From Alphaproteobacteria bacterium (lineage in GTDB: Bacteria; Pseudomonadota; Alphaproteobacteria; Bin95), in the NCBI GenBank assembly GCA_963665325.3, contig OZ224045.1, positions 704,001-768,000 of the forward strand: 64,000 nucleotides of DNA, given 5' to 3'. Shown piece after piece: positions 8,901 to 43,913 of this stretch. Each line of letters opens with the position of its first letter. Positions within the stretch are counted from its first letter, which is position 1. The position numbers were made by a program, and so were the translations under genes. The notes below the pieces were generated by a model. The model had not been told where the DNA came from. It made no database searches and saw nothing but the letters and a program-made list of their open reading frames with translations.

Positions 8901-11521
8901 TGCACCGGCGTCGCCGTCGCCGTCGCCGCAGCGCCCGCGCCGACAGCATTCGCCGCCCGCACCTCGAAGGCATGGGCCGTGCCGTTGGTCAGGCCGCTGA
9001 CTCTTCTGAACAGAACGTTCGCGATCGATTGCCAGGCCGTTTCGGACGGCACCGTGGCGCCCTCTGCGTAGCGGTATTCGTAGCGGTCAATCGCGGTACT
9101 GCCCGGAGCCGCCGGCGCTTCCCAGTCCAGCCTCACCTCCCCGTGGCTCGCCGCCGCCGTCAGGTTCCGCGGTGCGGACGGGGGAAAGCCGGGCGTCGCC
9201 TGGATTTGCGCTGCCGGCCCCTCTCCATCGGCGTTCACCGCCCGCACCTCGAAGCTGTAGAGCGTCCCGTTGGTCAGGAACCGGAAAGCGCCGGTAGTAC
9301 TGGGTCCCGTCGAAATCCAGCGCGTGCTTGCGGGAACCGAGGCGCCTTCGGCATTGCGCATCTCGTAGTACCGGACATTGGACCCGCCGCTGTTCCTCGG
9401 TGCCGACCATCGCAGGACGACCCCGCCGTCTTCCGTCGTGGCAGAGACATCTTGAGGAGCGGACAGCGGACCGTCGTTGTCCTCGATCGTGACCGTCATG
9501 ACGCAACCGCCCGAAGCGCAGGCGGTCGTCCCGTCCGCCTCGCGGAAGCGCACCCACGGGGGTACCCCGGGCGCCGCCAGGACGTTCATCTGGAATTCCT
9601 CGTCGGCCTCGACGGCGCTGTCGTCGACGATGGAGAGCGCGACCGACTTCCGGGCCTGCCAGATGCCGTCAACCTCGGAATAATCCTCCGGCTCGACGTC
9701 GAACATGATCGACAGGTTTTCGACGTCTGCGGAGAGCGTCGCGCCACCGGTAACAGCAGAAGTGATCACCGCCATACGGAAGGCCGCGCTCGGACGGTCG
9801 CCGCCTTGCTCTCCCTGCGCGACAATCGCGACGCTGGCCCCGCTCGCGCCTTCCGCAAATCTGTAGGCCGCCTTTTCCGGGCGGGCGGTGACCGTGGGAT
9901 GGCTCACAGGCGTCGCCGTCGCCGTTGCCGCATCGCCCACGCCGACACCGTTCACCGCCCTCACCTCGAAGGCGTAGGCCGTACCGCTGGTCAGGTCGTC
10001 GACTATTCTGGACGGATCCCTGCCGTTCGATCGCCAGGCCGTCTCGGAAGGCACCGCGGCGCCCTCGGCGTAGCGGTATTCGTAGTCCGTAATCGCGGTA
10101 CTGCCCGGAGCCGCCGGCGCTTCCCACTCCAGCGTCACCTGCCCGTGACTAGCCTTCGCCGTCAGGTTCCGCGGCGCGGACGGGGGAAAGCCGGGCGTCG
10201 CCTGGATCTGCGCTACCGTCCCCTCTCCCTGCGCGTTCACCGCGCGCACCTCGAAGCTGTAGAGCACACCGTTGGTCAACTGCCGAAAAGCTCCCGTAGT
10301 GGCGATCCCCGTCGAAATCCAGGGCCTGTCCTCGGGAACCGAGGCGCCTTCGGCGCGGCGCATCTGGTAGTGCAGGATTCTGGAGCCGCCATCGTGCGCC
10401 GGCGCCGACCATCGCAGGACGACCGCGCCGTCTTCCGGTGTCGCCGTCAGGCTTTGCGGCGCAGACGGTCGACCCGGCGTCGCCTGGATCTGCGCTACCG
10501 GCCCCTCTCCCTGCGCGTTCACCGCCCGCACCTCGAAGCTGTAGAGCACACCGTTGGTCAGCGAACGGAAAACGACCGCAGTGGTGGACCCCGCCCAACT
10601 CCAGGGCCTGTCCTCGGGAACCGAGGCGCCTTCGGCGTAGCGTATCTGGTAGTGCAGGACTCTGGAGCTGCCTTCATCCGCCGGCGCCGACCATTGCAGG
10701 ACGACCGCGCTGTCTTCCGGTGTCGCCGTCAGGCTTTGCGGCGCAGACGGTTGACCCGGCGTTGCCTGGATCCGCGCTGCCGGCCCCTCTCCCCGGGCGC
10801 TCACCGCCCGCACCTCGAAGCTGTAGCGCGTCCCGTTGGTCAATTGCGGGAAAGCCCTCGACGTGAGGGTCCCGTTCGATATCCAGGGCGTACCCTCGGG
10901 AACCGAGGTGCCTTCGGCGCTGCGCACCTCGTAGCGCAGCAGGATAGTGGAGCCGCCATCGTCCGCCGGCGCCGACCAGCGCAGGACGACCCCGCTGTCG
11001 TCCGCCGTTGCCGTCAGGCTTTGCGGTGCGGACGGGGGAAGACCGGGCGTCGCCTGGAGTTGCGCCGCCGGCCCTGCTCCCTGGGCGTTCACCGCCCGCA
11101 CCTCGAAGCTGTAGCGCGTCCCGTTGGTCAGCTGCGGGAAAGCGAACGACGTGAAGGTCCCGGTCCGAATCCAGGGCGTACCCTCGGGAACCGAGGCGCC
11201 TTCGGCGCTGCGCACCTCGTAGCGCAGGATAGTGGAGCCGCCATTGTCCGCCGGCGCCGACCATCGCAGGACGACCCCGCCGTTGTCCACCGTCGCGGAG
11301 ACGTTCTGCAGCGCACCCGGGGGGCCCGGCTCACTCTGGCGCGCAACGGGCGGGTCGGACGGATTGCTCGCCTGCGCAGCGGCGGCCGGCAGAAAAACCG
11401 ATGCGACGCCGAATATGGCAGCCCAGCGTCGGACAAACCGGACCGACGCGCAAAGAAACCCGGTCGGCCCGGAACGAAAATTGTTTCGAATGGCGCTCGA
11501 CCAGCCGGAAGTCGTACCCAT
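2981..11521 (-). CDS. Giant fibronectin type III repeat surface protein (~24 complete Fn3 + 1 broken, 3 Calx-beta-like domains), C-terminally truncated by the transposon
   Basis: Repeated W.AP..GGS...YEYR and Y[SA]FEVRA motifs; three 'LSIVDD...E.DE' Calx-beta-like units; N-terminal signal-like segment (WAAIFGVASVFLPAAAAQA); last repeat breaks at VPDE|CALGI*. Confidence 0.9.
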   Translation of the reverse strand: MGTTSGWSSAIRNNFRSGPTGFLCASVRFVRRWAAIFGVASVFLPAAAAQASNPSDPPVARQSEPGPPGALQNVSATVDNGGVVLRWSAPADNGGSTILRYEVRSAEGASVPEGTPWIRTGTFTSFAFPQLTNGTRYSFEVRAVNAQGAGPAAQLQATPGLPPSAPQSLTATADDSGVVLRWSAPADDGGSTILLRYEVRSAEGTSVPEGTPWISNGTLTSRAFPQLTNGTRYSFEVRAVSARGEGPAARIQATPGQPSAPQSLTATPEDSAVVLQWSAPADEGSSRVLHYQIRYAEGASVPEDRPWSWAGSTTAVVFRSLTNGVLYSFEVRAVNAQGEGPVAQIQATPGRPSAPQSLTATPEDGAVVLRWSAPAHDGGSRILHYQMRRAEGASVPEDRPWISTGIATTGAFRQLTNGVLYSFEVRAVNAQGEGTVAQIQATPGFPPSAPRNLTAKASHGQVTLEWEAPAAPGSTAITDYEYRYAEGAAVPSETAWRSNGRDPSRIVDDLTSGTAYAFEVRAVNGVGVGDAATATATPVSHPTVTARPEKAAYRFAEGASGASVAIVAQGEQGGDRPSAAFRMAVITSAVTGGATLSADVENLSIMFDVEPEDYSEVDGIWQARKSVALSIVDDSAVEADEEFQMNVLAAPGVPPWVRFREADGTTACASGGCVMTVTIEDNDGPLSAPQDVSATTEDGGVVLRWSAPRNSGGSNVRYYEMRNAEGASVPASTRWISTGPSTTGAFRFLTNGTLYSFEVRAVNADGEGPAAQIQATPGFPPSAPRNLTAAASHGEVRLDWEAPAAPGSTAIDRYEYRYAEGATVPSETAWQSIANVLFRRVSGLTNGTAHAFEVRAANAVGAGAAATATATPVHQPTVTARPEKAAYNFVEGASETSVAIVAEVESDGGRPSETFYVSVSTKEVTGGAKSPADFGAVAAPVGIEPKDFSKVGGVWQARKTVALSIVDDALDEDDENLTVTLEMAPGFPPWAQIREADGTTVCGSGVCLMTVTIGDNDSAPSEPQNFTATPEDGAVTLAWEAPADSGTSAISEYEYRHAEGTSVPEKRDWISAGTDLTATIGSLTEGTTYAFEVRAVSDAGGGAPASATAGPLTLPSVPQDVVAAAEDGGVVLRWSAPADDGGSNVRHYQMRNAEGASVPASTRWISTGPSTTGAFRFLTNGTLYSFEVRAVNAQGDGPAAQIQATPGFPPSAPRNLTATASHGAVTLEWEAPSDSGSTAIDRYEYRYAEGATVPSETAWQSIANVLPRRVSSLTDGTAYAFEVRAVNDVGAGAAATATATPVRHPTITARPEKAAYRFAEGASETSVAIVAEVESGGGRPSEVFEVSVSTKTVTGGAKFGADYATLSITVRIEPEDFSEVGGIWQARKTVALSIVDDALDEDDENLSVRLIRAPGFPPWAQIREADGTTVCGADGCLMTVTIGDNDSAPSAPQNLSATPGDGEVTLAWEAPADPGTSAISEYEYRHAEGTSVPAERDWISAGTDLTATIGSLTEGTTYAFEVRAVSDAGGGAPASATAGPLTLPSVPQEVVAAAEDGGIVLRWSAPADDGGSNVRHYQMRNAEGASVPASTRWISTGLRTTGAFRFLTNGTLYSFEVRAVNAQGDGPAAQIQATPGLPPSAPRNLMATPADGGVELRWQAPADDGGADIARYDVRHAEGASVPGDTTWTPVGLVTTLTVSDLTNGTAYAFEVRAVSNATAGEAATTAATPATVPGPPQNFSTTPSDGEVVLTWQAPASNGGSAVTEYEYRHAEGEAVPDETAWQSAGTGLTATVDSLTNGTEYAFEVRAVNAEGEGGAATATVTPAAQPTVPSVPQNLAATPGDGEVVLTWQAPASNGGSAVTEYEYRHAEGASVPDETAWQSAGTSLTATVNSLTNGTEYAFEVRAVNAEGESDPAAATATPATVPGPPQNLSTTPADGQVTLTWKVPSSNGGSAVIDYEYRLAEGASVPAEAAWLSTGKRTHVTRRGLTNGTEYTFEVRAVNVVGGSEPATATTTPAVQPTVPSVPQSLAATPGDGEVVLTWQAPASNGGSAVTEYEYRHAEGASVPDETAWQSAGTSLTATVDSLTNGTEYAFEVRAVNAEGEGEAATATATPVTVPGLPQSLAATPGDGEVVLTWQAPASNGGSAVTGYEYRHAEGASVPDETAWQSAGTSLTATVDSLTNGTEYAFEVRAVNNEGEGEAATAAATPAVQPTVPSVPQSLAAMPGDGEVVLTWQAPASNGGSAVTGYEYRHAEGASVPDETAWQSAGTSLTATVDSLTNGTEYAFEVRAMNAEGEGEAATAAATPAVQPTVPSVPQNLAATPGDGEVVLTWQAPASNGGSAVTGYEYRHAEGASVPDETAWQSAGTSLTATVDSLTNGTEYAFEVRAMNAEGEGEAATAAATPAVQPKVPSVPQNLAATPGDGEVVLTWQAPASNGGSAVTGYEYRHAEGEAVPDETAWQSAGTSLTATVDSLTNGTEYAFEVRAVNAEGEGGAAAKSATPATVPSVPQSLVATPGNGEVVLTWQAPASNGGSAVTEYEYRHAEGASVPDETAWQSAGTSLTATVDSLTNGTEYAFEVRAVNAEGEGKPAAATATPATVPGPPQNFSTTPGDGEVVLTWQAPASNGGSAVTEYEYRHAEGASVPDETAWQSAGTGLTATVDSLTNGTDYAFEVRAVNAEGESEAAAMSATPATVPGLPQSLVATPGNGEVVLTWQAPSSNGGSAVTGYEYRHAEGEAVPDETAWQSAGTSLTATVDSLTNGTEYAFEVRAVNNVGPGAAVTGMGSPAATVPFAPQTLVATPGDGEVVLAWTAPADDGGSAVTEYEYRHAAGSSVPDECALGI
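3000..6330. repeat. Near-identical intragenic tandem repeats of ~285-294 bp (one Fn3 domain each)
   Basis: Units at 4188, 4482 and 4776 are spaced 294 bp and almost identical. Confidence 0.9.
6600..9450. repeat. Higher-order 1287-bp duplication (Fn3-Fn3-Calx-Fn3 module)
   Basis: The motif CGCGTGCTTGCGGGAACCGAGG recurs with its TTGCGGG at 6754, 8041 and 9328 (period 1287). Confidence 0.85.
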
Positions 11522-26013: not shown

Positions 26014-26949
26014 ATGAGCTTGCCGCTGGACGACCGGACGCGCTACGGCCTGATGACCCGCCTGCCGACGCCGGAGCTTGCCCGCAAGACGGTCGCACTC
26101 CTGGACCGGCTGGAATTCGACTCGATCTGGGTCGGCGACCATCTGGCCTTCACCTCGCCGATCCTCGATCCGTTCGTGCAACTGTCCTATGCGGCTGCCC
26201 TCTCGCCCCGCCTCACCGTCGGAACCGCGGTCTATCTGCTGCCCATGCGCCATCCTGCGGGTGTGGCGAAACAGGCCGCCTCGCTGGACCATCTGGCGGA
26301 AGGCCGCTTCATCTTCGGCATCGGAGTCGGCGGCGAGTTTCCGCCCGAATGGGAGCTTGCCGGCGTGCCGCACAGCGAGCGCGGCGCGCGCATGACCGAG
26401 TCCATCGAAGTGCTGCGGAAACTCTGGGCCGGCGAACCGGTCGCCCACGAGGGACAGTTCTTCCCCTTCTCCGAAATACATATGCAACCGGCATCCTTTC
26501 GGGCGGGCGGGCCGCCGATCTGGTGCGGCGGGCGCCAGCCGGCCGCGTTCCGCCGCGCGGGCCGGATGGCGGACGGCTACATGTCCTACGTCATCACGCC
26601 GGAGATGTTCTCCAATGCGCTCGACACCATCTCGGCGGCGGCGGAGGAGGCGGGCCGCGAGATCGAGGCCTTCGGCACCTCACACCTGCTGTTCTGCTGC
26701 ATCGACGAGACTTACGAGAAGGCGCTGGACCGGGCGGCGGAACTGCTCTCGAAGCGCTATGCGATGGACTTCCGCAGGCCGGCCCAGCGCTATGCGGCGC
26801 TCGGCACGCCCGCTGACATCGCAGAGAAGATCGGGGCCTTCCACGAGGCGGGCGTGCGCCATTTCAATCTCGACTTCATCGGCGACCAGCCCATGCGCAT
26901 CGAAGGCCTGCACCGCTTCGCCGAGGAAGTGCGCCCGCTCATCGCCTGA
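26014..26949 (+). CDS. LLM-class flavin-dependent oxidoreductase
   Basis: DSIWVGDH, LDHLAEGRFIFGIGVGGE and PPIWCGG motifs. Confidence 0.9.
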   Translation: MSLPLDDRTRYGLMTRLPTPELARKTVALLDRLEFDSIWVGDHLAFTSPILDPFVQLSYAAALSPRLTVGTAVYLLPMRHPAGVAKQAASLDHLAEGRFIFGIGVGGEFPPEWELAGVPHSERGARMTESIEVLRKLWAGEPVAHEGQFFPFSEIHMQPASFRAGGPPIWCGGRQPAAFRRAGRMADGYMSYVITPEMFSNALDTISAAAEEAGREIEAFGTSHLLFCCIDETYEKALDRAAELLSKRYAMDFRRPAQRYAALGTPADIAEKIGAFHEAGVRHFNLDFIGDQPMRIEGLHRFAEEVRPLIA

Positions 26950-27763
26950 GCGCGGCGGCGGCCTCCCGCGTCGCACGCTGTCCGTCCGCAACAGCCTCGG
27001 CCAGCGAACCGGCGCGGCGAACGGCACCCGCCGTAAAGACGCCCTCCCCCTCCAGCGCGGTCACAGGCTCCAGGCCGATGAAGACGAACACGCCCGAGAC
27101 CTCCAGCCGCCGCCCGTCGGCGAGCGTCACACCATCGACGCCGCTCTCTCCGTCGATGGACGCCACCTCGCTGTTCCAATGGAAGCTGAACTTCGGGTCG
27201 GCCGCCGCCCGTGCGCCATAGCCCGGCCGCGCCGAAAGCCGGCTGCCCCTCACGACCATCGCAATCGAGCGCGCGTAGCCCGCAAGGTGCAGCGCCTCCT
27301 GCAACGCCGCATCGCCCCCGCCTACTACCGCCACATCGGCATCCCTGAAGAACCCGGCGTCGCAGAAGGCGCATTGCGACACCCCCCGCCCGGTCAGCGC
27401 TTCCTCGCCCGGCACGTCCAGCCGGCGGAGCCGGGCGCCGGTCGCCGCCACGACCGCCTTCACCCGGTAGCGTCCGCCGCCGGCCGTCTCGACCATCCGC
27501 CGCCGGCCCTGCGCGCGGACGGCCTCCACATGCTCATCGAGGAAACGCACACCGGCTTCCGCCAGCCGGTCCTTCCAGCCGAAAGCCAATTCCGCGCCGC
27601 CGACAGACGCAGGCCAGCCGTCGAGCGCACCCACATTGGCGACGAGCCCGCCATAGAGCCCGGACTCGAACAGCGCGACCGCGAGCCCCTGCGAAACCGC
27701 CTCGTCCGCCGCCGCGAGTCCCGCCACCCCGCCGCCGACCACCGCCAGATCGAGCGGCCTCAT
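26939..27763 (-). CDS. Thioredoxin reductase-like FAD/NAD(P)H oxidoreductase
   Basis: VVGGGVAG, ATGA, GRGVSQCAFCD (CxxC), VVGGGDAA and GVFVFIG motifs; start overlaps the upstream stop. Confidence 0.9.
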   Translation of the reverse strand: MRPLDLAVVGGGVAGLAAADEAVSQGLAVALFESGLYGGLVANVGALDGWPASVGGAELAFGWKDRLAEAGVRFLDEHVEAVRAQGRRRMVETAGGGRYRVKAVVAATGARLRRLDVPGEEALTGRGVSQCAFCDAGFFRDADVAVVGGGDAALQEALHLAGYARSIAMVVRGSRLSARPGYGARAAADPKFSFHWNSEVASIDGESGVDGVTLADGRRLEVSGVFVFIGLEPVTALEGEGVFTAGAVRRAGSLAEAVADGQRATREAAAALRR

Positions 27764-28905
27764 GCGCCGATTTCCCTGACGATGCAGCAGGGCGGGAAAC
27801 CCCAGGACGGGAACCAGGCGCATTGCGGGATCGGGATGTCGCCGCCCGCCACGATCAGCACGATGTCTTCCGGCCGCGCGACAGCGGGCACCGCATCCTG
27901 CCCCGCCGTCCACTCCGGCCAGCGCTCGACGCCGATGAGACGCGTGCGCAGCCAGAGCTTGTCAAAATCGGCGCGCGGCATCCGTCCCCGCCGCCAGAGC
28001 GCCTCCTTCACGTCCGCCTTCGACCAGCCCTGACTTGCCAGCTCCTGCGCGACAAAAGGCGCCATCACGACCGCCGCCTTGCCCTCCCAGGCCATGTTGA
28101 AGGACGAGGCGGCGGAGCCCATCACGCTCGCAAGATCGTCCAGCCCGCCGGTCACATTGATCGCCGTCTCCGCCCGCATCATCGCCAACACATTCTCGCC
28201 GCCCAGTTCCTCATGCAGCGGCTCCCAGGGGTTGGCCGCGGCGTTCTCGGCCAGCACCATGGTATAGCGCCCCGGCTGGCCGAGCCCGGCGAAGGATACG
28301 GCCTCCGGCCAGCCGCCGCCGATATTGTTCATCACGAACCTGACCGCGCGCCCGATGGCGGCATTGGCCTGCCAGCCCGGCCCCAGCATTCCGAAGCCGG
28401 CATTCACCTCCAGCCGTTCGACGACCGGCCCGCTCAGCAGGATGAGCGGCGCCACATTCTCATCCGTGGTCTGCACACCCCGCAGGTTGAAGGCGGGGTC
28501 GGCCAGCGCCTCCACGGCAGCCAGAACCACCGGGAAATGCTCCGGCGCGCAGCCCGCCATGACGGCATTGGCGGCCACGCGCTCGACCGTCGCCACGCCC
28601 TTCAGCGGATCGAGCTCGCCCAGGCTTTCGTTGCGCCCGCGCCCGCCGGCGCGCAGCATGGCGTCCACCCGGTCGAGCGTCGGCGGCAGGATGGGCAGGC
28701 CATCGGTCCAGCCGCGCCGGTAGTAAAGCGCGCTCGCGTCGCCGTCCCGCAACACCTCCACCCGCTGACGGGGGAAACGCCCGGCCTCCGTCAGCCGGGC
28801 GGTCATGCCCTTCTCGCGCGCCCTCTGGACGAGGGTGTCATCGATCCACGCCCCGTTCGCCCGCTGGCCCGCAGGTATCAGCAGCCAGAGCGCCTCTCCG
28901 CTCAT
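27760..28905 (-). CDS. Uncharacterised paralog of the C-terminal domain of the UGSC selenoprotein
   Basis: Shares GWTDGLP.LPPT, TV..VAANAVMAGC.PE..PV.LA and QAN..IGR with 29743-31143; C-terminal PPCC. Confidence 0.8.
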   Translation of the reverse strand: MSGEALWLLIPAGQRANGAWIDDTLVQRAREKGMTARLTEAGRFPRQRVEVLRDGDASALYYRRGWTDGLPILPPTLDRVDAMLRAGGRGRNESLGELDPLKGVATVERVAANAVMAGCAPEHFPVVLAAVEALADPAFNLRGVQTTDENVAPLILLSGPVVERLEVNAGFGMLGPGWQANAAIGRAVRFVMNNIGGGWPEAVSFAGLGQPGRYTMVLAENAAANPWEPLHEELGGENVLAMMRAETAINVTGGLDDLASVMGSAASSFNMAWEGKAAVVMAPFVAQELASQGWSKADVKEALWRRGRMPRADFDKLWLRTRLIGVERWPEWTAGQDAVPAVARPEDIVLIVAGGDIPIPQCAWFPSWGFPPCCIVREIGA

Positions 28906-28954: not shown

Positions 28955-29338
28955 TCAGAGAACTCGCGCGACATCTGTCCGCACAAAGTCCGTTCCAACG
29001 TGCAGCAAGGGGCAATCATGTGTCTTCGCGATCTCATAAGCGAAGCAGTCGCCGAAGTTCAGACTGGCCGGATGAACGCCTTTACCCCATTGCGCATAGC
29101 AGTCGGCGACACGCCGTGCCACAGCCGGAGAGACGCTGATAATCTCAAACTCGAGCCCATCGACAAGCTCTGCCATTTCCTCGCCGAGACCTCGCCTTTC
29201 GGCCACGATGAGCGCTTCAGCTACCGTTACGGCAGAAATCAGGAGACGGTCGTTCGCCGCGAGAGCATCCGTACAGGCGGCAGCCTCCGGCTCACCCTGC
29301 AGAATCGCCATGAGCGCGGACGTATCGACCGCGATCAA
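28955..29338 (-). CDS. VapC PIN-domain toxin
   Basis: IAVDTSAL, LNFGDCFAY and LLHVGTDF motifs. Confidence 0.93.
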   Translation of the reverse strand: MIAVDTSALMAILQGEPEAAACTDALAANDRLLISAVTVAEALIVAERRGLGEEMAELVDGLEFEIISVSPAVARRVADCYAQWGKGVHPASLNFGDCFAYEIAKTHDCPLLHVGTDFVRTDVARVL

Positions 29339-29661
29339 TTCGGCAATCCGTCCTCGTCATAGAGGAAGTCCTGACTGCGGGCCGCATCGGAGTCTGTGGC
29401 CCGTTCGCCTGCTTCCCCGAGTTCGTAAAGCGTGCGTAGCGGTTCGCCGCGAACTTTGGAAAGTTCAGCCATCCGCTTGCGAGCGGCAGCCTGCACCGCA
29501 GCAATCACGGCGCGCCGTTTATCTGCATCGGGCCGTCGCCGCACGGGAGCCAGCCTGACGGTCGCCTGACCGTGACGAGTCAGCACAACCTCTTCGCCCG
29601 CCTCTGCGCGGCGTACGAGTTCGGTCAATTGCCCCTTCGCCTCGGTGACGGAAACCCGCAT
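29335..29661 (-). CDS. Phd/YefM-family antitoxin
   Basis: MRVSVTEAKGQLTELVRRAEAGEEVVLTRHG; C-terminal FLYDEDGLP. Confidence 0.9.
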   Translation of the reverse strand: MRVSVTEAKGQLTELVRRAEAGEEVVLTRHGQATVRLAPVRRRPDADKRRAVIAAVQAAARKRMAELSKVRGEPLRTLYELGEAGERATDSDAARSQDFLYDEDGLPN

Positions 29662-29699
29662 CGGCCTGCTTCCCAGAACGCATACCGGCTCAGCCGGAT

Positions 29700-29715
29700 T
29701 ATGGTCCATACCATA
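29700..29715. promoter_or_regulatory. Putative TA operator palindrome
   Basis: TATGGT-CCAT-ACCATA upstream of the antitoxin. Confidence 0.5.
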
Positions 29716-29742: not shown

Positions 29743-31467
29743 TCAGCCAGCAGCCGCCAGTCTGGCCTCCCAGTCCGCCGGCAGCTCGATCTCCCGGGTC
29801 ACGGGGAAGCCGAGAATGCCGTTGTGCGAGAACACATAGGCATTGGTGCGCAGCGGGTCGCCCGCCACCGCAATCCCGAAATCGTCGGGCTCGCATACGA
29901 TGGGCACCATCCGGTCCGGGTCGTCCGATTCGGCGAAGACCTCGGGCGCCTTGCCGAGCGCCACGAGCTCCGTCAGCGAGCGGTGGCCGGGCACCAGGTT
30001 GGTCCAGCCCGAGATATATTGCTCGAACTTCCGGGCCGGCATCCGCGCATGCTCGTACAACCAGTCGCGCATGTCGTCCTTGGAGAGCCCCGAACCCGCG
30101 ATGGTCTCGGCCAGGATCGGCGAGAGCACCAGCAGCGGGCGGTAGGTGCCGGTCGCCATGCCGACGGTGAACACCAGCTCCCAGCCGGACTGCTTGACCA
30201 GCGCATCCGCGAGATAGGGCAGCATCTCTTCCGCCCGGCGCCCGAAAACGGAAGTGATGACATCGCCGCCGGTATAGCGGGAGATTGTGACGGCGTTCGC
30301 CCCTTCCGGCAGGCCCATGTCGGCCGCCGTGTTCGGCCAGCCGATGCGCCTGAGCACATCCTCGTTCTCGGCAAGCGCCACCCGCCAGGTATTGCCGAAT
30401 GTACCCTTGTCCGTCTCATGCGGGATGAAGCCCGCGACATTGCGCAGGTAGAGCCGCCAGAAGCGCCCGATGGAGGTGTTGGCCTGGAAACCGTCCCTGA
30501 GCGCACCCTGCTCGCAGTTGAAATCGAGCGCCTTCGCGATCGGGCCGTTGACCGTAATCAGCGTTTCCGCCCCCGGCGTGTTGCCGGAATGCTCGACGCC
30601 GTATTCCGGGTCGGCCATCGCCTCGGCGAGCGCCACCAGCACCGGCATGTATTCCGGCCGGCAGCCGGCCATGACGCCGTTCGCCGCCACATTCCAGACT
30701 GTCGATGCCCGGTTGTCGGGCGGGACCTTGCCGAGCACCGTGTCGCCCGGCCGGTCCGAGAAGGCGAGGAACCGCTCGATCTTCTCCACCGAAGGCGGCA
30801 CCACCGGCAGCCCGTCGGACCAGCGGTTCTCGTAGAAGAGGCGGTTCACCTCCTCGAAGCTTCCCTCGAACACGATGTCGCGCGCCTCGGGTTCGACCGT
30901 CTCTACCGCCTCGACCGGCGGCTCGGTCAGGTTCGCGATGACAGCGTCCAGCGTCTCGCCCAGCACATTGGAGCGGAGCTCGTTATCGGTTTGCGTATCG
31001 ACATGGCCGGCCACCGGCGCCAGCGGCAGGTTTGGCATCCCCAGCCCCACAGCCGTGGTGCCCGCCTGGCCGACAAAGCCCTCGCAGACCAGCGATGAGG
31101 ACGGCACGCCCGCCGCTTCGGCCACTGCGCTCACCCGCAACACGGCGGGAGTGCAGGAGCCTCAGCAGCCCATCCCGGAGATGATGGCGTCGGCCTTGAG
31201 TTCCTTCAGCCGGTCCGGCAGCGAGGCGATGATCTCGCGCTCCTCGTCGCCGTGGGTCGAGCCGAAGACGTCATAGCCGATGAAATCGACGCCGGGATAG
31301 CGCTCGGACAGCCCGTCCGCCAGCATCGGGAAGATCTCGTCGCCCCGGAACAGGTAGTCCCAGAGAAAGGCGACGCGCTTGCCCTCCAGGTTATCGAGGC
31401 GCGGCGCCAGCGCCTGCAGCGCCTGCGCCTTCTCGCCCCGGGGCCAGACGACGGCATAGTCGGCCAT
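29743..31467 (-). CDS. UGSC-family selenoprotein, ~574 aa, Sec at TGA 31162-31164 (C-U-G-S-C)
   Basis: Minus strand reads ATG GGC TGC TGA GGC TCC TGC ACT CCC GCC GTG, joining both ORFs in frame. GGAGAAGGA RBS precedes 31467 and none precedes GTG 31143. A hairpin follows the TGA and selAB are nearby. Confidence 0.9.
31125..31161 (-). promoter_or_regulatory. Putative bacterial SECIS element
   Basis: After UGA: GGCUC-CUGC-A-CUC-CCGC-CGUGUU-GCGG-GU-GAG-C-GCAG. The apical loop starts ~18 nt after UGA, with G at loop position 2. Confidence 0.65.
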
Positions 31468-31546
31468 GGGTTCCTTCTCCCGCTTGAATTGCAGTCGCGG
31501 CGAGGCTGCGACCGGGGGCCTCCCGCGTCAAGGGGCGCGGGATGTC

Positions 31547-40684: not shown

Positions 40685-42570
40685 TCCCGCCACTCCCTGA
40701 CGATCCGCCGCGCATCGCCCTCGCGCCGGGTGAAGCCTTCCTTGTCGAAAAACTCCAGCAATTCGATGGTGACATTGCGTCCGATGCCGGAGCGGTCCTT
40801 GTAATCCGCGGCTGTGAAGCGCCCGTCGGCGCTCTCCGCCGCCAGAGTTTCGGCGATGCCGGCCAGCCCCTTGAGCGCGGCCGGCGGAAACCAGCGATTG
40901 TCCGCAACGCGCCGTACCAGGCCGAAGCGCCCCGCCTGGCGCAGCACACCCTCGACCCGGACGTGATCGACCTTGAGCATGTCGGCCAGTTCGCGCACGC
41001 GCGGCGGACGCAGACCGCCTTCCGTGACCAGCGGTTCGATCCGCTGCCAGAGCGCTTCCTCCTCCGGGGCAAGCGCCGCGCGGTGGCCCGGCCGATGAAC
41101 GAAGCCGCCGGAGCGCGCGAGCTTGCCGGCGGAAGCGAGCGCCGCCAACGCCGCCTCCGCGATGTCGCGCGGCGGCACCGGGTCCAGCCGCCGGCGCAGC
41201 GCCACGGGACCGAGGCCGGGGCTGTCCGGATGAGCCGCCGTCCATTCATCCACCTCGCGCTCGAAGGCGTCGCAAAGCGCCTGCCAGCGCCCGGCATCGA
41301 CTGCAACCGGACCCGCGAACACGACGCCGTCCCTCCGGCGCAGCACCGCCTGCTCCGCGTCGTTCAGGTTGTACGCCAGCGCAAACCGGGCAAAGTCGAA
41401 CCCGAACGCCGTCGCCTCCACCAGCCCGCCGAACGGGTCGTCCCCAGCGCGCGCCGCGAGCTCGGCCAGCCGCTCCGGCCGCGCCCGGCCGCGCGCCGGC
41501 GGAAACGGATCGGCGACCCGCCCGCCCGCAATGGTGCGCATCGCCGACTGGTCGCGCAGCACGATTCCGTCGCCTGCAAGCGCGCCGATCTCCCGATCCA
41601 GCAGCAATTGCGCCCAGCCGGCCGCGCCCGGCGCAATGGACGGGCCGTCCAGCACCGCCACCCGCCCGGTGACGTCGGCTGCGCCCAGGTGGACGTGCAC
41701 GGGCGTGCGGTCGCGGAGCGGCCGCGCCTCGCTGCCGAGCACCCTGAGCCTGATGTCGATGCGGCGGGTCGGCCCGTGTGCCTCGGGCGCCAGCAGCCAG
41801 TCGCCGCGGGAGACGGCGTGGCGGCGGAGACCGGCTCCGGCGAGGTTGAGCGCCACCCGCTGCCCCGCCTGGGCAGCATGACTCTCGACATTCTCGGCAT
41901 GGATGGCGCGCACCCGCGCCCCGACGCCGCCGGGCGAGACCAGCAGACGGTCGCCGACCTTGACCGCGCCTGAAAACGCCGTTCCGGTGACCACGAGCCC
42001 CGCGCCGCGCAGGGTGAAACTGCGGTCAACCGCCAGCCGGAACCGCCCCGCCGCCCGCCGCCGCCCGACCGCGCCCGCAAGGCGCTGCAGCGCCCGGCGA
42101 AGCTCCGGCACGCCCTCCCCGGTTATCGCGGAGACCGGCAGCACCGGTGCGCCAGCAAGCCCGGTATCGGCTGCGAGCGCCTGCGCCTCTTCGGCAACCG
42201 CCTGTACGCGCTCCGGCTCCGCGCGGTCGGCCTTGGTCACGGCGATTATGCCGCGCTGCACGCCCAGCAGGTCGAGGATCGCCAGATGCTCGCGCGTCTG
42301 CGGCATCGGCCCGTCGTCGGCGGCCACGATCAGCAGCGCCGCATCTATGCCGGTGACGCCCGCCAGCATGTTCTTGATGAACCGTTCGTGCCCCGGCACG
42401 TCGATGAAGCCGATTGTCTGGCCGGGGCCGGCCTGCCAGTAGGCGAAGCCCAGGTCGATGGTGAGCCCCCTCGCCTTCTCCTCCGGCAGCCGGTCGGCGT
42501 CGGTGCCCGTAAGAGCCTTCACCAGCGAGGTCTTGCCGTGGTCGATATGCCCGGCGGTCGCGACGATCAT
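40681..42570 (-). CDS. selB: Selenocysteine-specific elongation factor
   Basis: [18 protein letters not shown] and C-terminal w[18 protein letters not shown]. Confidence 0.97.
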
Positions 42571-43913
42571 GGCCCGAGTTGGGACAGGAAAGCGTCTTCG
42601 TCGTCAAGGGTGCGCAGATCGAAGAGCAGCCGCCCCTCGGAGATGCGCCCGATGACCGGGATGGGCAGCTGCCGGAAGGCCGCCGCGCGCGCTTCGAGCG
42701 CCTTGCCGCCGGGAGCGGAGAGCGCAAGAGCCCGGCTCTCGAGCCGTTCCACCGGCAGCGACCCGGAGCCGATCTGGCTCAGCGCGGTCACGACCTCGGC
42801 ACCCTCTATCGCCGGCGCAAGCCGATGTGCCTGGGCCTCGATTTCCTCTACCGGACGGGTGAGGATGCGCAGCGCAGGCAGGCGTTCCGCCAGCCGGTCG
42901 GGGTCCCGATAAAGCCGCAACACCGCCTCCAGCGCGGCGAGCGACAGCTTGCCGAGGCGCATGGCGCGGCGCATCGGGTTGTTCTTGATCGCTGCGACGA
43001 GGTCTGCCCGGCCGACGATAATGCCTGCTTGCGGGCCGCCCAGCAGCTTGTCGCCGCTGAAGGTAACCAGACCGGCCCCGTCTGCGAGCGCGTGGCCCGG
43101 CATGGGCTCCTGCGGAAGGCCGTAACGTGCAAGATCGACAAGCTGCCCGGCACCCAGATCCACCGCATAAGGCACGCCTGCCGCCTCCGCGATGCAGGCA
43201 AGGCGGTCGTCAGGCACCGAGGCCGCGAAGCCGACGACTTCATAGTTGGAGGTGTGCACCTTCATGACGCAGCCCGTTTCCGGGCCGATGGCGGCCTCGA
43301 AGTCGCTTGCATGCGTGCGGTTGGTGGTGCCGACCTCGACCATGCGGGCGCCGGCGCGGGCCATGATTTCCGGCATCCGGAAGGAGCCGCCGATCTCGAC
43401 GAGTTCGCCGCGCGAGACCAGCGTGTCCCGCCCTGCCGACAGGCTGTTCAGCACCAGCAATACGGCGGCGGCATTGTTGTTGACGGCGGTTGCGGCTTCC
43501 GCGCCCGTAAGTTCGGTGAGCAACGCCTCGACATGGGAGTCCCGGTCGCCCCGCCGCCCGGTCTCCAGATCGTATTCGAGATTGCAATTTCCGGCAGCGG
43601 CAGCGACGGCGGCGACGGCCTCTTCCGGCAAGGGCGCCCGGCCCAGATTGGTGTGCAGTACCACGCCTGTCAGGTTGAAGACACGGCGGAGCGAAAGTCG
43701 CGCACGGGCCGCGATATGGGCCGCCGCCACCGGCCCGAGCCCAGTCGGGTCGAGCGCGCGGCCGGCCCCCAACACTCTCCGCGCATCCGCCAAAGCCTTC
43801 CGTGCGCCTGCCAGTGCCTCGGATCGCCCGTATTCCTCAGCCGCAGCCGCAAGGGCAGGCTCTTCGAGCAGCCGGTCCACCGAAGGCAGGATCGAGAAAT
43901 CCGGGCGTGACAT
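42567..43913 (-). CDS. selA: L-seryl-tRNA(Sec) selenium transferase
   Basis: [28 protein letters not shown] and [13 protein letters not shown] motifs. Confidence 0.97.

What the first reader, a model, noticed from the sequence alone, without database searches (positions are those of the whole stretch)
29743..31467. Hidden selenoprotein: two ORFs are one gene read through TGA (C-U-G-S-C) with a SECIS-like hairpin
Seen: the 101-aa ORF ends GMGC-TGA and continues in frame as GSCTPA into the 466-aa ORF. The second ORF has no RBS. A stem-loop (CCGC/GCGG around CGUGUU, extended by CUC/GAG and CUGC/GCAG) follows the UGA, and selA and selB lie in the same window. Known: UGSC-type (seleno)proteins have a UxxC motif and no established function. 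Inference: a 574-aa fusion of the UGSC domain to a large conserved domain, with an extra vicinal Cys (CU) in addition to UxxC.
Basis: partly seen in the sequence, partly recalled or inferred. Interest (0 to 1): 0.88.

Follow-up and report, generated by a model that had tools for sequence, protein, structure and literature searches.

The report
Mis-split UGSC-family selenoprotein fusion gene
The two adjacent reading frames are one gene for a 574-residue selenocysteine-containing protein of the already known but functionally uncharacterised UGSC family, fused to a large conserved domain of unknown function, so it is a correct catch of a known kind rather than a new one.

Summary
Observation confirmed. 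Window 31467..29743 (-) is one 574-codon frame interrupted only by TGA at 31164-31162 (GMGC-U-GSCTPAVLR). Pfam UGSC (PF24696) scores 34.9 and 28.8 bits on the two ORFs and 95.9 bits (profile 2-171 of 172) on the read-through. Twelve full-length homologues have Cys at the U column. All 160 related loci fetched keep TGA there. A hairpin CCCGC-CGUGYU-GCGGG lies 12 nt after the UGA and fits the published bacterial SECIS model. Its five codons have almost no synonymous variation in 159 distinct sequences, while neighbouring conserved codons vary freely. The genome has selA and selB (in the window), an Ndh-SelD fusion and tRNA-Sec.

The UGSC selenoprotein family has been in print since 2007-2008, and a 'UGSC/Unknown_1' fusion was reported in 2008, so this is a new member of a known kind.

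New details: the Cys before Sec occurs in 156 of 162 Sec forms and co-varies with Cys128. The 380-residue C-terminal domain has no Pfam or NCBIfam model and no PDB fold relative. It recurs fused to UGSC in both orders and to a ferredoxin:thioredoxin-reductase module. A paralogue and a thioredoxin-reductase-like flavoprotein are frequent neighbours. This suggests, unproven, an NAD(P)H-driven selenol/thiol relay.

The parts
29743..31467 (-). Whole selenoprotein gene: 574 codons plus stop, with U102 encoded by TGA
   Evidence: frame; Pfam UGSC 95.9 bits across the junction; Cys homologues; TGA kept in 160 of 160 loci
31472..31480 (-). Shine-Dalgarno-like GGAGAAGGA, 4 nt upstream of the ATG at 31467-31465
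   Evidence: Read directly
31162..31164 (-). Sec codon UGA (U102)
   Evidence: It aligns with Cys in 12 of 12 full-length homologues. It is TGA in 159 of 159 distinct orthologous sequences.
31134..31149 (-). SECIS core hairpin: CCCGC, loop CGUGUU, GCGGG. It starts 12 nt after the UGA, and the loop starts 17 nt after it.
   Evidence: five pairs, four invariant in 82 of 82 sequences and the fifth C-G in 80 with U-G in 2; synonymous entropy 0.00-0.10 bits at codons +5 to +9.: -7.8 kcal/mol.
31125..31156 (-). Extended stem of the hairpin (CUGC/GCAG and CU/AG in this window). It is poorly conserved among homologues except pair 21-38.
   Evidence: -14.6 kcal/mol. (pair 21-38: GC 51, AU 16, GU 1, unpaired 11 of 79 distinct rows; the lower pairs are partly unpaired).
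30925..31452 (-). UGSC domain, residues 6-181: an alternating beta/alpha domain. C101-U102-G-S-C105 lies between strand 94-100 and helix 105-118, and C128 lies at the end of strand 123-128.
   Evidence: Pfam; AlphaFold2 model, pLDDT 91; C101/C128 co-variation
29746..30885 (-). C-terminal conserved domain, residues about 195-574, probably 'Unknown_1' of the 2008 paper. Cys269 (30661-30663) in NGVMAGC is invariant.
   Evidence: no Pfam or NCBIfam hit, Pfam also at E up to 10; invariant columns; no PDB relative; homologous to the paralogue, hhalign E 1.3e-57
28955..29709 (-). Phd/YefM antitoxin (29335-29709) and PIN-domain toxin (28955-29338), inserted between the selenoprotein gene and its paralogue
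   Evidence: Pfam; in L021 and L023 the two genes are 11 and 37 nt apart with no such pair; L024 has the same pair.
27760..28905 (-). Stand-alone 381-aa paralogue of the C-terminal domain (NAVMAGC kept)
   Evidence: hhalign probability 100. (a paralogue lies beside the fusion gene in 68 of 160 loci, 66 of 73 hits downstream, median distance 33 nt).
26939..27763 (-). Thioredoxin-reductase-like flavoprotein with CAFC. Its ATG overlaps the paralogue's TGA (ATGA at 27763-27760).
   Evidence: Pyr_redox_2; TIGR01292 183.7 bits, below the cut-off of 343.45; overlap; present in 49 of 160 loci, 44 of 49 hits on the same strand
40702..43892 (-). selB (40702-42570) and selA (42594-43892)
   Evidence: 535.3 and 442.2 bits, both above the curated cut-offs

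Best explanation
Window 31467..29743 (-) is a single gene for a 574-residue selenoprotein.

Recoding. The ribosome reaches UGA 31164-31162. A small hairpin in the coding sequence starts 12 nt downstream (CCCGC-CGUGUU-GCGGG). It would recruit SelB carrying Sec-tRNA(Sec), so that selenocysteine is inserted as residue 102 and translation continues. This step rests on comparative data.

The protein. Residues 6-181 are a UGSC-family domain. It is an alternating beta/alpha (Rossmann- or flavodoxin-like) domain in the model. The motif C101-U102-G-S-C105 lies at the junction of a strand and a helix N-terminus. Residues about 195-574 are a conserved domain without any family model. It has an invariant Cys269.

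Proposed function (inferred, about 40-45% likely). The UGSC domain is a built-in selenol/thiol redox module, with U102/C105 as the redox pair and C101/C128 as an accessory pair. It would be reduced by the neighbouring NAD(P)H-dependent thioredoxin-reductase-like flavoprotein. It would in turn reduce the Cys-dependent C-terminal domain, and possibly the stand-alone paralogue encoded downstream. The substrate of that domain is unknown.
For: One gene, not two:
- Pfam UGSC matches profile 2-91 on ORF1 (34.9 bits) and 107-171 on ORF2 (28.8 bits).
- It matches 2-171 of 172 on the read-through (95.9 bits, E 3.8e-27).
- AlphaFold2 folds the junction inside one domain (pLDDT 91, pTM 0.91).

Sec/Cys pairing:
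- Of the 120 best hits, 12 cover 98-99% of the query. All 12 have Cys at the U column, with no gap at the junction.

Conservation of UGA:
- 81 of 81 gene copies in 80 genome loci have TGA.
- 80 of 80 metagenome loci have TGA.
- The source organisms, by record title, include Alpha-, Beta- and Gammaproteobacteria, Acidimicrobiia, Chloroflexi, Methylomirabilota, Myxococcota, Nitrospinota and Verrucomicrobiia.

SECIS:
- In 159 distinct sequences the third positions of codons +5 to +9 (P A V L R) have entropy 0.10, 0, 0, 0 and 0 bits.
- Every other conserved four-fold codon from -25 to +44 has 0.72-1.85 bits.
- The closing pair 21-38 switches between G-C (51) and A-U (16).
- Loop 6 nt, G at loop position 2 followed by U, 17 nt from UGA to loop, and MFE -7.8 to -22.4 kcal/mol. 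All lie within the published bSECIS model (PMC13188914, Fig. 2 legend).

Machinery: selA, selB, an Ndh-SelD fusion and tRNA-Sec (anticodon tca) are present.

Redox relay:
- Of 51 relatives of the C-terminal domain picked for having extra length, 39 carry UGSC and 3 carry FeThRed_B.
- UGSC occurs both before and after the domain.
- In this genome there is a second UGSC fusion (C1, about 259.9 kb). There is also a split pair with overlapping stop and start on C3.
- A TrxR-like gene lies within 3 kb in 38 of 82 well-flanked loci, and a paralogue in 43 of 82. The next commonest neighbours reach at most 10 of 82.
- Here the paralogue and the TrxR-like gene overlap by ATGA.
Against: - No experimental evidence of selenium incorporation or of the full-length product is available.
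- The hairpin's energy alone is not significant in this G+C-rich context (z = -1.15 for 76 nt).
- No DNA of a Cys-form homologue could be obtained. The control 'the hairpin decays when Sec is replaced by Cys' therefore rests only on protein sequences (Leu at +8 in 151 of 159 Sec forms but in 1 of 12 Cys forms).
- The NCBIfam equivalog model NF041046 is not met (40.7 versus 125 bits). The protein is a divergent branch of the family.
- About half of the well-flanked loci have no TrxR-like gene within 3 kb (44 of 82).
- The second fusion in this genome has Ala in place of the 'catalytic' Cys.
- I could not read inter-domain distances from the model.
- The Foldseek hits of the UGSC domain are flavodoxin-like rather than thioredoxin-like, and all have E above 0.001.
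Confidence: 0.9

Rival explanations
1. Two separate genes. Translation stops at UGA, giving a 101-residue protein, and a 466-residue protein starts independently at GTG 31143.
For: This is what table-11 ORF calling gives. Public gene calls give the same: 108 of the 120 best hits are calls of 432-469 aa (one of 861 aa) that start just after the TGA. Three of the four I read begin MLR(A/V)SA and one begins MRASA.
Against: - The split would cut one Pfam domain and one predicted alpha/beta domain in two.
- The GTG lies inside the conserved hairpin and has no ribosome-binding site.
- Cys-containing homologues are continuous.
- The synonymous-site freeze at codons +5 to +9 has no explanation under this model.
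Confidence: 0.02
2. A pseudogene or a sequencing error: a Cys codon TGC/TGT mutated or misread to TGA.
For: TGA is one substitution away from TGC or TGT.
Against: - TGA sits at the same column in 161 independent gene copies from 160 other loci of many phyla.
- Both halves are under strong protein-level conservation.
- A complete Sec machinery is present.
Confidence: 0.01
3. It is a real selenoprotein, but the UGSC domain does not pass electrons to the C-terminal domain. For example, C101-U102-x-x-C105 with C128 could bind a metal, a selenium or sulfur species or a cofactor. Or the C-terminal domain could be a non-catalytic scaffold or sensor, with the TrxR-like neighbour serving another pathway.
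For: - Four chalcogen residues cluster at two adjacent strand ends.
- The most conserved loops of the C-terminal domain (295-299 and 324-330) are the least confident parts of the model, as ligand-binding loops often are.
- The Cys269 equivalent is Ala in the second fusion of this genome.
- A TrxR-like gene is absent within 3 kb in 44 of 82 well-flanked loci.
Against: - Forms with Ala or Ser at 101 and 128 keep U/C102 and C105, so the two-residue UxxC pair is the constant core.
- The C-terminal domain is fused to two different kinds of disulfide-reductase module, UGSC and FeThRed_B. This is the pattern expected for an acceptor of reducing equivalents.
Confidence: 0.3
4. The UGA is read through by something other than the SelB pathway, such as near-cognate Trp or Cys insertion.
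For: None specific. Low-level UGA read-through exists in bacteria (general knowledge).
Against: - The hairpin fits the bSECIS model.
- selA, selB, selC and selD are present.
- The aligned residue in homologues is Cys.
- selA or selB lie beside the gene in 9 and 7 of 160 loci.
Confidence: 0.01

Closest known systems
UGSC-containing selenoprotein family (Pfam PF24696, NCBIfam NF041046; first noted in Hyphomonas neptunium, example ABI76733.1 as listed in PMC13188914)
   Same: - U-G-S-C motif with Sec encoded by UGA.
- Pfam model matched end to end.
- Sec forms far outnumber Cys forms: 255 versus 21 in PMC2398784; here 160 of 160 loci are Sec forms.
- The function is uncharacterised in the reviews I searched (passages read in PMC13188914, PMC9312934).
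   Different: - It scores 40.7 bits against the NF041046 cut-off of 125.
- The five other UGSC genes of this genome read D-U-G-S-C-[ST]-[ST]-[CW]-x-x-H-D. This one reads C-U-G-S-C-T-P-A-V-L-R.
- It uses a different SECIS sequence.
- It carries a 380-residue C-terminal domain.
'UGSC/Unknown_1' fusion selenoprotein of Zhang and Gladyshev 2008 (PMC2398784, text and legend of Fig. S1A)
   Same: [quoted passage not shown] This is exactly the pattern found here.
   Different: I could not see Fig. S1A because supplements are closed. That 'Unknown_1' is this C-terminal domain is therefore likely but unverified. The passages I read do not mention the C-U dyad, the C101/C128 co-variation, the TrxR-like neighbour, the reverse-order fusions or the FeThRed_B fusions.
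Bacterial SECIS of the E. coli fdhF type and the bSECISearch consensus
   Same: A small hairpin in the coding sequence directly after UGA. G then U at loop positions 2-3, a 6-nt loop and 17 nt from UGA to loop. All lie inside the consensus model (PMC13188914, Fig. 2 legend). From memory, the minimal fdhF element also sits 11 nt after UGA.
   Different: The primary sequence is unrelated to fdhF. No Rfam family matched in the window. The core is only 5-6 bp but is almost invariant in sequence across phyla.
Thioredoxin / thioredoxin reductase and ferredoxin:thioredoxin reductase systems
   Same: A redox-active (U/C)xxC at a strand-helix junction. A neighbouring FAD/NAD(P)H disulfide reductase homologue with CxxC. 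Relatives of the C-terminal domain fused to the FTR catalytic chain instead of UGSC.
   Different: The UGSC domain is not detectably a thioredoxin fold; its weak Foldseek hits are flavodoxin-like. The flavoprotein scores below the TrxB cut-off (183.7 versus 343.45 bits). No electron transfer has been shown.
C-terminal Gly-Cys-Sec-Gly redox centre of mammalian thioredoxin reductase (recalled, not from a call)
   Same: The tetrapeptide G-C-U-G is present here (residues 100-103). Gly at -2 is found in 66% of the 159 distinct Sec-form sequences, and Cys at -1 in 96%.
   Different: Here the motif is internal, is followed by S-C to give UxxC, and the Cys co-varies with Cys128. The resemblance to a vicinal selenenylsulfide centre is a lead only.

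Membership tests
Bacterial selenoprotein gene (Sec-UGA with bSECIS) | In-frame UGA aligned with Cys in homologues | tested here: met
   12 of 12 full-length homologues have Cys at the U102 column, and the alignment is continuous
Bacterial selenoprotein gene (Sec-UGA with bSECIS) | UGA conserved in orthologues from other organisms | tested here: met
   81 of 81 copies in 80 genome loci and 80 of 80 metagenome loci
Bacterial selenoprotein gene (Sec-UGA with bSECIS) | Hairpin meeting the bSECIS model: loop 3-9 nt, upper stem 4-16 bp, G in the first two loop positions, 16-37 nt from UGA to loop, MFE at or below -7.5 kcal/mol (PMC13188914, Fig. 2 legend) | tested here: met
   Loop CGUGUU (6 nt, G at position 2, then U). 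Stem of 5 bp, or 6 in most homologues. 17 nt from UGA to loop. MFE -7.8 for the core, -14.6 for 32 nt, -22.4 for 46 nt. bSECISearch itself was not run.
Bacterial selenoprotein gene (Sec-UGA with bSECIS) | selA, selB, selC and selD in the genome | tested here: met
   selA 535.3 bits, selB 442.2 bits, selD 270.6 bits (as a 720-aa Pyr_redox_2-SelD fusion), tRNA-Sec 72.6 bits with anticodon tca
Bacterial selenoprotein gene (Sec-UGA with bSECIS) | Selenium physically incorporated at the UGA position | not testable with these tools
   Needs 75Se labelling or mass spectrometry
UGSC family, Pfam PF24696 | Score above the gathering threshold over the whole domain | tested here: met
   95.9 bits against 25; residues 6-181 match profile 2-171 of 172
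UGSC family, Pfam PF24696 | U-G-S-C motif | tested here: met
   Residues 102-105
UGSC_fam, NCBIfam NF041046 (equivalog, 147 positions) | Score above the curated cut-off | tested here: not met
   40.7 bits against 125. This is a divergent subfamily, not the equivalog.
Canonical stand-alone UGSC proteins, as seen in the five other copies of this genome (my own description, not a published definition) | D-U-G-S-C-[ST]-[ST]-[CW]-x-x-H-D signature | tested here: not met
   This gene has C-U-G-S-C-T-P-A-V-L-R
UGSC/Unknown_1 fusion (PMC2398784) | The fused domain is the paper's 'Unknown_1' | not testable with these tools
Only the text and the legend were read.
Thioredoxin fold (suggested for UGSC in PMC2398784) | Structural similarity of the UGSC domain to thioredoxin-fold proteins | tested here: inconclusive
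   Foldseek against the PDB gave 0 hits at E up to 0.001. The weak hits covering the N-terminal domain are flavodoxin-like (3u7i, 4gi5, 1ydg, 2q62; TM 0.36-0.42 by target length). No thioredoxin appears among the rows shown (ranks 1-50).
Thioredoxin-disulfide reductase TrxB (TIGR01292), for the neighbour at 26939-27763 | Score above the equivalog cut-off; redox-active CxxC | tested here: not met
   183.7 bits against 343.45. The CAFC motif is present. It is a homologue, not TrxB itself.

The most novel reading that the evidence does not exclude
The fusion protein, its stand-alone paralogue and the TrxR-like flavoprotein may form a previously undescribed NAD(P)H-driven selenol/thiol reductase system. 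Its catalytic part would be the 'Unknown_1' domain. That domain has more than 6,000 clusters at 50% identity, no Pfam or NCBIfam model and no PDB fold relative. It would be a new class of Cys-dependent enzyme, recharged by a dedicated Sec-containing module. In that module a C101-C128 pair would relay to U102-C105.
Probability: 0.35. Interest if true: 0.6.

Novelty: new member of a known kind. Interest (0 to 1): 0.35.

Why it matters
UGSC proteins are among the most abundant selenoproteins in aquatic metagenomes: 255 sequences in the first GOS survey and 8.2% of selenoprotein genes in the updated one (PMC2398784, PMC9402790). In the passages of the two reviews I read (2022 and 2026) they have no assigned function.

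Gene callers systematically split this gene. Most database entries are fragments that start just after the Sec codon, so the active site is missing from nearly every deposited protein.

This report gives the correct gene model and a sharply defined SECIS that could be used to find and repair such calls. It also offers a testable three-part redox hypothesis built on domain fusions and gene neighbourhood.

It does not reveal a new kind of system. The recoding mechanism and the family are textbook cases for specialists.

Tried and rejected
1. Hairpin energy as evidence. The 76-nt fold is not better than shuffles (z = -1.15), so I relied on comparative data instead.

2. Rfam and tRNA scans of the window found nothing.

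3. A control with DNA of Cys-form homologues failed. A metagenome scan seeded with an alignment of the 12 Cys forms returned 80 loci that were all Sec forms. A sample of 401 genomes of the phylum had a match in only 4, and none was a Cys-form fusion. No Cys-form DNA was obtained.

4. Single-linkage clustering of neighbouring ORFs gave 91 loci with a 'TrxR-like' gene. On inspection that cluster was contaminated by off-frame ORFs and unrelated dehydrogenases. I discard that figure, and the other cluster counts, and use the representative-based tblastn counts. The earlier tblastn count of 52 of 160 loci (E up to 1e-8) is superseded for the same reason of stricter filters.

5. Fold searches. Neither the full model nor the paralogue model has a PDB match at E up to 0.001. 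The recurrent weak hits to class I fumarate hydratases (probability up to 0.66, TM 0.17-0.20, rmsd about 18-20 Å) and to Toblerone-fold amide hydrolases (probability about 0.1) are too weak to use.

6. A profile search of PDB sequences found nothing (best E 0.7).

7. The Atlas search with the paralogue returned only unnamed or automatically named 'thioredoxin family' clusters without a common Pfam family, and one cluster with UGSC in 41% of members. It adds nothing independent.

8. The idea that C101 forms a vicinal selenenylsulfide with U102, as in mammalian TrxR, is demoted because C101 co-varies with C128.

9. Not run: complex prediction (the UGSC domain cannot be given under code 11, and a stand-in from another organism seemed poor value), the look-up of sequencing runs and read laying (a transcript across the junction would not discriminate), and bSECISearch (not available).

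10. Literature. Searches for 'UGSC', 'CUGSC' anywhere in a word and 'UGSC' with 'selenoprotein' found no paper describing the C-U dyad or a function. I read only passages around the term in PMC2398784, PMC13188914, PMC1976440, PMC9312934 and PMC9402790, and nothing of the other listed papers. Supplementary Fig. S1A of PMC2398784 may show the same fusion and could not be seen.
Full report
**The observation.** On the minus strand, an ATG at 31467 is preceded by GGAGAAGGA at 31480-31472. It opens a frame that reads 101 codons to ...ISGMGC. The frame then meets TGA at 31164-31162 and continues GSCTPAVLRVSAV... for 472 more codons to the stop at 29745-29743. Read with TGA as U, the product has 574 residues with U102. 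The 466-aa ORF that a table-11 listing reports starts at a GTG at 31143, which lies inside the hairpin described below.

**One gene, not two.** Pfam's UGSC model (PF24696, 172 positions) matches ORF1 over profile positions 2-91 (34.9 bits). It matches the start of ORF2 over positions 107-171 (28.8 bits). On the read-through protein it matches positions 2-171 in one stretch, residues 6-181, with 95.9 bits and E 3.8e-27. The TGA thus lies in the middle of a domain. An AlphaFold2 model built on a 55-row alignment is confident (mean pLDDT 91.0, pTM 0.91). It places C101-U102-G-S-C105 in the loop between strand 94-100 and helix 105-118 of a regular alternating beta/alpha domain.

**Homologues.** A search of the clustered protein collection gave 6,733 proteins at E up to 0.001 among the 8,000 candidates scored.
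- Of the 120 best, 12 are 578-607 aa long and cover 98-99% of the query.
- The other 108 cover 75-81%. They are 432-469 aa long, plus one of 861 aa.
- All 12 long ones align without a break across the junction and have Cys at the U column, as CGSC or CGAC.
- I read four of the short entries. Three begin MLR(A/V)SA and one begins MRASA, just after the Sec codon. Three of the four are named 'UGSC family (seleno)protein' by NCBI.

The public record therefore mostly holds truncated calls of this protein.

**Conservation of the UGA.** I fetched DNA from two collections.
- 80 loci came from one-genome-per-species contigs. They hold 81 copies of the gene, and all 81 have TGA at the aligned codon.
- 80 loci came from metagenome contigs, found with an alignment of the Cys forms as query. 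All 80 again have TGA. One further regex hit in L151 was spurious and was dropped.

The record titles name Alpha-, Beta- and Gammaproteobacteria, Acidimicrobiia, Chloroflexi, Methylomirabilota, Myxococcota, Nitrospinota, Verrucomicrobiia and others. All 81 copies in the genome loci show an open frame of 46 to 723 codons before the TGA (the shortest are cut by contig ends) and 462-479 codons after it. A sequencing error or a pseudogene is excluded.

**The hairpin.** In an ungapped alignment of 82 sequences from 6 nt before the TGA to 57 nt after it, columns 22-26 and 33-37 read CCCGC and GCGGG around the loop CGUGYU.
- Four of the five pairs are invariant in 82 of 82 sequences. The fifth is C-G in 80 and U-G in 2.
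- A sixth, closing pair (columns 21 and 38) is G-C in 51, A-U in 16, G-U in 1 and unpaired in 11 of 79 distinct rows. This is a real double change.
- The lower stem seen in this window (CUGC/GCAG) is only partly kept elsewhere.

The decisive evidence is at synonymous sites, measured in 159 distinct sequences.
- The third positions of codons +5 to +9 (Pro, Ala, Val, Leu, Arg) have entropies of 0.10, 0, 0, 0 and 0 bits. The codons are CCC in 157 of 159, GCC and GTG in 159 of 159, NTG in all, and CGG in 159 of 159.
- Every other well-conserved four-fold codon between -25 and +44 has 0.72-1.85 bits.

Such a local freeze of silent sites across phyla shows selection on the RNA itself.

The element fits the published bacterial SECIS model, which I read in the legend of Fig. 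2 of PMC13188914:
- The loop is 6 nt (model: 3-9).
- The stem is 5-6 bp (model: 4-16).
- G is at loop position 2, followed by U.
- 17 nt separate the UGA and the loop (model: 16-37).
- The MFE is -7.8 kcal/mol for the 16-nt core, -14.6 for 32 nt and -22.4 for 46 nt (model: at or below -7.5).

Energy alone is weak evidence here. The 76-nt stretch has z = -1.15, and 5 to 8 of 200 shuffles fold as well as the shorter pieces.

I could not get DNA of Cys forms for a direct control. At the protein level, residue +8 is Leu in 151 of 159 Sec forms and in 1 of 12 Cys forms; the other 11 have Val or Ile. That is what relaxation of the hairpin would give.

**Machinery.** All parts of the Sec machinery are present.
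- selA is at window 42594-43892 (535.3 bits).
- selB is at window 40702-42570 (442.2 bits).
- selD is elsewhere on the same contig (270.6 bits). It is a 720-aa fusion of a pyridine-nucleotide disulfide oxidoreductase domain with SelD. That form is described in PMC2398784.
- tRNA-Sec is on another contig (72.6 bits; ARAGORN anticodon tca).

**What is known.** The 'UGSC-containing protein' is an established selenoprotein family. I read only the passages around the term in each of these papers.
- PMC1976440 (2007) noted it in Hyphomonas neptunium and in metagenomes.
- PMC2398784 (2008) ranked it among the major families of the Global Ocean Sampling data (255 Sec sequences, 21 Cys homologues).
- PMC9402790 gave it 8.2% of selenoprotein genes in the updated data set.
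- PMC9312934 (2022) and PMC13188914 (2026) still list it without a function.

[quoted passage not shown] That is the architecture found here. The figure is a supplementary file that I could not open, so identity of the domains is likely but unverified.

Within the family this gene is a divergent branch. It reaches 40.7 bits against NCBIfam NF041046, whose cut-off is 125.

The same genome holds five more UGSC genes, every one with an in-frame TGA. These read D-U-G-S-C-[ST]-[ST]-[CW]-x-x-H-D. The gene under study reads C-U-G-S-C-T-P-A-V-L-R and uses a different downstream RNA sequence.

**The Cys next to Sec.**
- Among 162 Sec-form copies (the window, 81 and 80), residue -1 is Cys in 156, Ala in 5 and Ser in 1.
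- Among the 12 Cys forms it is Cys in 2 and Ala in 10.
- It co-varies with residue 128. Of the 158 copies with Cys101, 146 have Cys128. Of the 16 without it, 1 has Cys128.
- These sequences are related, so this is not a statistical test.

In the model, residue 101 ends strand 94-100 and residue 128 ends strand 123-128. I infer that C101 and C128 form their own pair beside the U102/C105 pair. I could not read coordinates to check the distance.

**The C-terminal domain.** Residues about 195-574 match nothing in Pfam, even at E up to 10, and nothing in NCBIfam at E up to 0.01 for the 466-aa ORF. A profile of the family finds nothing in PDB sequences (best E 0.7).
- Foldseek with the full model gives 0 PDB hits at E up to 0.001.
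- The N-terminal domain draws weak flavodoxin-like hits (3u7i, 4gi5, 1ydg, 2q62; TM 0.36-0.42 by target length).
- The C-terminal part draws only class I fumarate hydratases at TM 0.17-0.18.

The 381-aa ORF at 27760-28905 is a paralogue of this domain (hhalign probability 100, E 1.3e-57, 305 columns). Its own model (pLDDT 90.1, pTM 0.91) also has no PDB hit at E up to 0.001.

A profile of the paralogue finds 6,186 clusters at 50% identity with E up to 0.001, and 1,757 with E up to 1e-30. The domain is thus large, widespread and unmodelled.

Cys269, in N-G-V-M-A-G-C, is invariant in the 55-row alignment. It is at least 90% conserved in 51 diverse relatives. It is Ala in the second fusion of this genome. 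The two segments with pLDDT below 50 (295-299 and 324-330) fall in the most conserved motifs.

**Clues to function.** From the 150 best relatives of the paralogue I picked 51 that are longer than the domain. This is a selected set, not a random one.
- 39 carry UGSC and 3 carry the catalytic chain of ferredoxin:thioredoxin reductase.
- Of the 10 scanned singly, four have the domain first and then the first half of UGSC, ending where the Sec codon would be. This is the reverse order of fusion.
- One has the domain followed by FeThRed_B.
- One has no Pfam match, and the four of 709-741 aa also have none. Their several matched stretches suggest repeats of the domain.

In this genome there is a second UGSC fusion on contig 1 near 259.9 kb. 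On contig 3 a stand-alone copy of the domain has a stop codon that overlaps the start of a UGSC gene.

Gene neighbourhood in the 160 loci was counted by tblastn with representatives at half-length coverage and E up to 1e-15.
- A paralogue lies beside the fusion in 68 loci. It is within 3 kb in 43 of the 82 loci that have 3 kb on both sides. 66 of 73 hits are downstream, with a median distance of 33 nt.
- A thioredoxin-reductase-like gene is present in 49 loci (38 of 82), with 44 of 49 hits on the same strand.
- All other recurrent neighbours reach at most 10 of 82. They are a TctC-type binding protein, a CoA-transferase, an acyl-CoA dehydrogenase, a luciferase-like oxidoreductase, selB, selA and a Rieske oxygenase.

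In the window the order is fusion gene, an inserted Phd/YefM-PIN toxin-antitoxin pair, paralogue, then the TrxR-like gene. The ATG of the TrxR-like gene overlaps the paralogue's TGA. That flavoprotein has a CAFC motif. It scores 183.7 bits on TIGR01292, below the cut-off of 343.45.

**Most likely mechanism.** Shown by comparison: SelB-dependent insertion of Sec at UGA 31164-31162, directed by the hairpin at 31149-31134, giving a 574-residue protein.

Inferred: the UGSC domain is a selenol/thiol redox module. It would take electrons from NAD(P)H through the TrxR-like flavoprotein and pass them to the Cys-dependent C-terminal domain, and perhaps to the paralogue. I put this relay at 40-45%. The main alternative, about 30%, is that the four chalcogen residues bind a metal or another ligand, or that the C-terminal domain is not a redox acceptor.

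**Verdict.** It is a new member of a known selenoprotein family, and the fusion was probably already reported in 2008. I score interest at 0.35. The value lies in the corrected gene model, in a sharply defined SECIS, and in a testable hypothesis for an abundant family whose function is unassigned in the passages I read.

Noticed in passing
Window's genome, outside the window: G000 C1:963593-964096 (-), C3:1241056-1241559 (+), C1:259964-260461 (+), C3:670815-671312 (+), C1:697396-697887 (+); loci L181-L185: There are five further UGSC-family genes, each with one in-frame TGA, so the genome has six UGSC selenoprotein genes. All five read D-U-G-S-C-[ST]-[ST]-[CW]..HD. The one at C1:259.9 kb is a second fusion to an Unknown_1-like domain, in which the conserved Cys is Ala.
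   Followed up: partly
G000 C3:669436-670800 (L184:122-1486, +) and the UGSC gene starting at L184:1483: A stand-alone 454-aa copy of the Unknown_1-type domain has a stop codon that overlaps the start of a stand-alone UGSC selenoprotein gene. This is a split version, in reverse order, of the fusion studied here.
   Followed up: partly
window 28955-29709 (-): A Phd/YefM antitoxin and PIN-domain toxin pair sits between the selenoprotein gene and its paralogue. The close relatives L021 and L023 have the two genes 11 and 37 nt apart without it. L024 has the same pair, and L022 has only an antitoxin-like remnant.
   Followed up: partly
G000 C1:977950-980109 (L010:334-2493, +): selD is a 720-aa fusion of a pyridine-nucleotide disulfide oxidoreductase domain with SelD. 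This is the Ndh-SelD form described for marine metagenomes in PMC2398784.
   Followed up: yes
window 27760-27763 (-): The paralogue's stop TGA and the TrxR-like gene's start ATG overlap as ATGA, which suggests translational coupling.
   Followed up: yes
L093:5004-6710 and L093:8512-10236 (+): One betaproteobacterial contig carries two copies of the fusion gene, with S-U and A-U instead of C-U and with Ser or Ala at the position of Cys128.
   Followed up: partly
protein P0017 (861 aa): In one organism the post-TGA part of the fusion and the downstream paralogue are called as a single open reading frame. The full protein would then be UGSC-Unknown_1-Unknown_1.
   Followed up: no
window 2981-11521 (-): There is an open reading frame of 2,846 codons. 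I did not examine it.
   Followed up: no
L115, L083 and other loci: selB lies beside the fusion gene in 7 of 160 loci and selA in 9 of 160. In the window they are about 9 kb away.
   Followed up: partly
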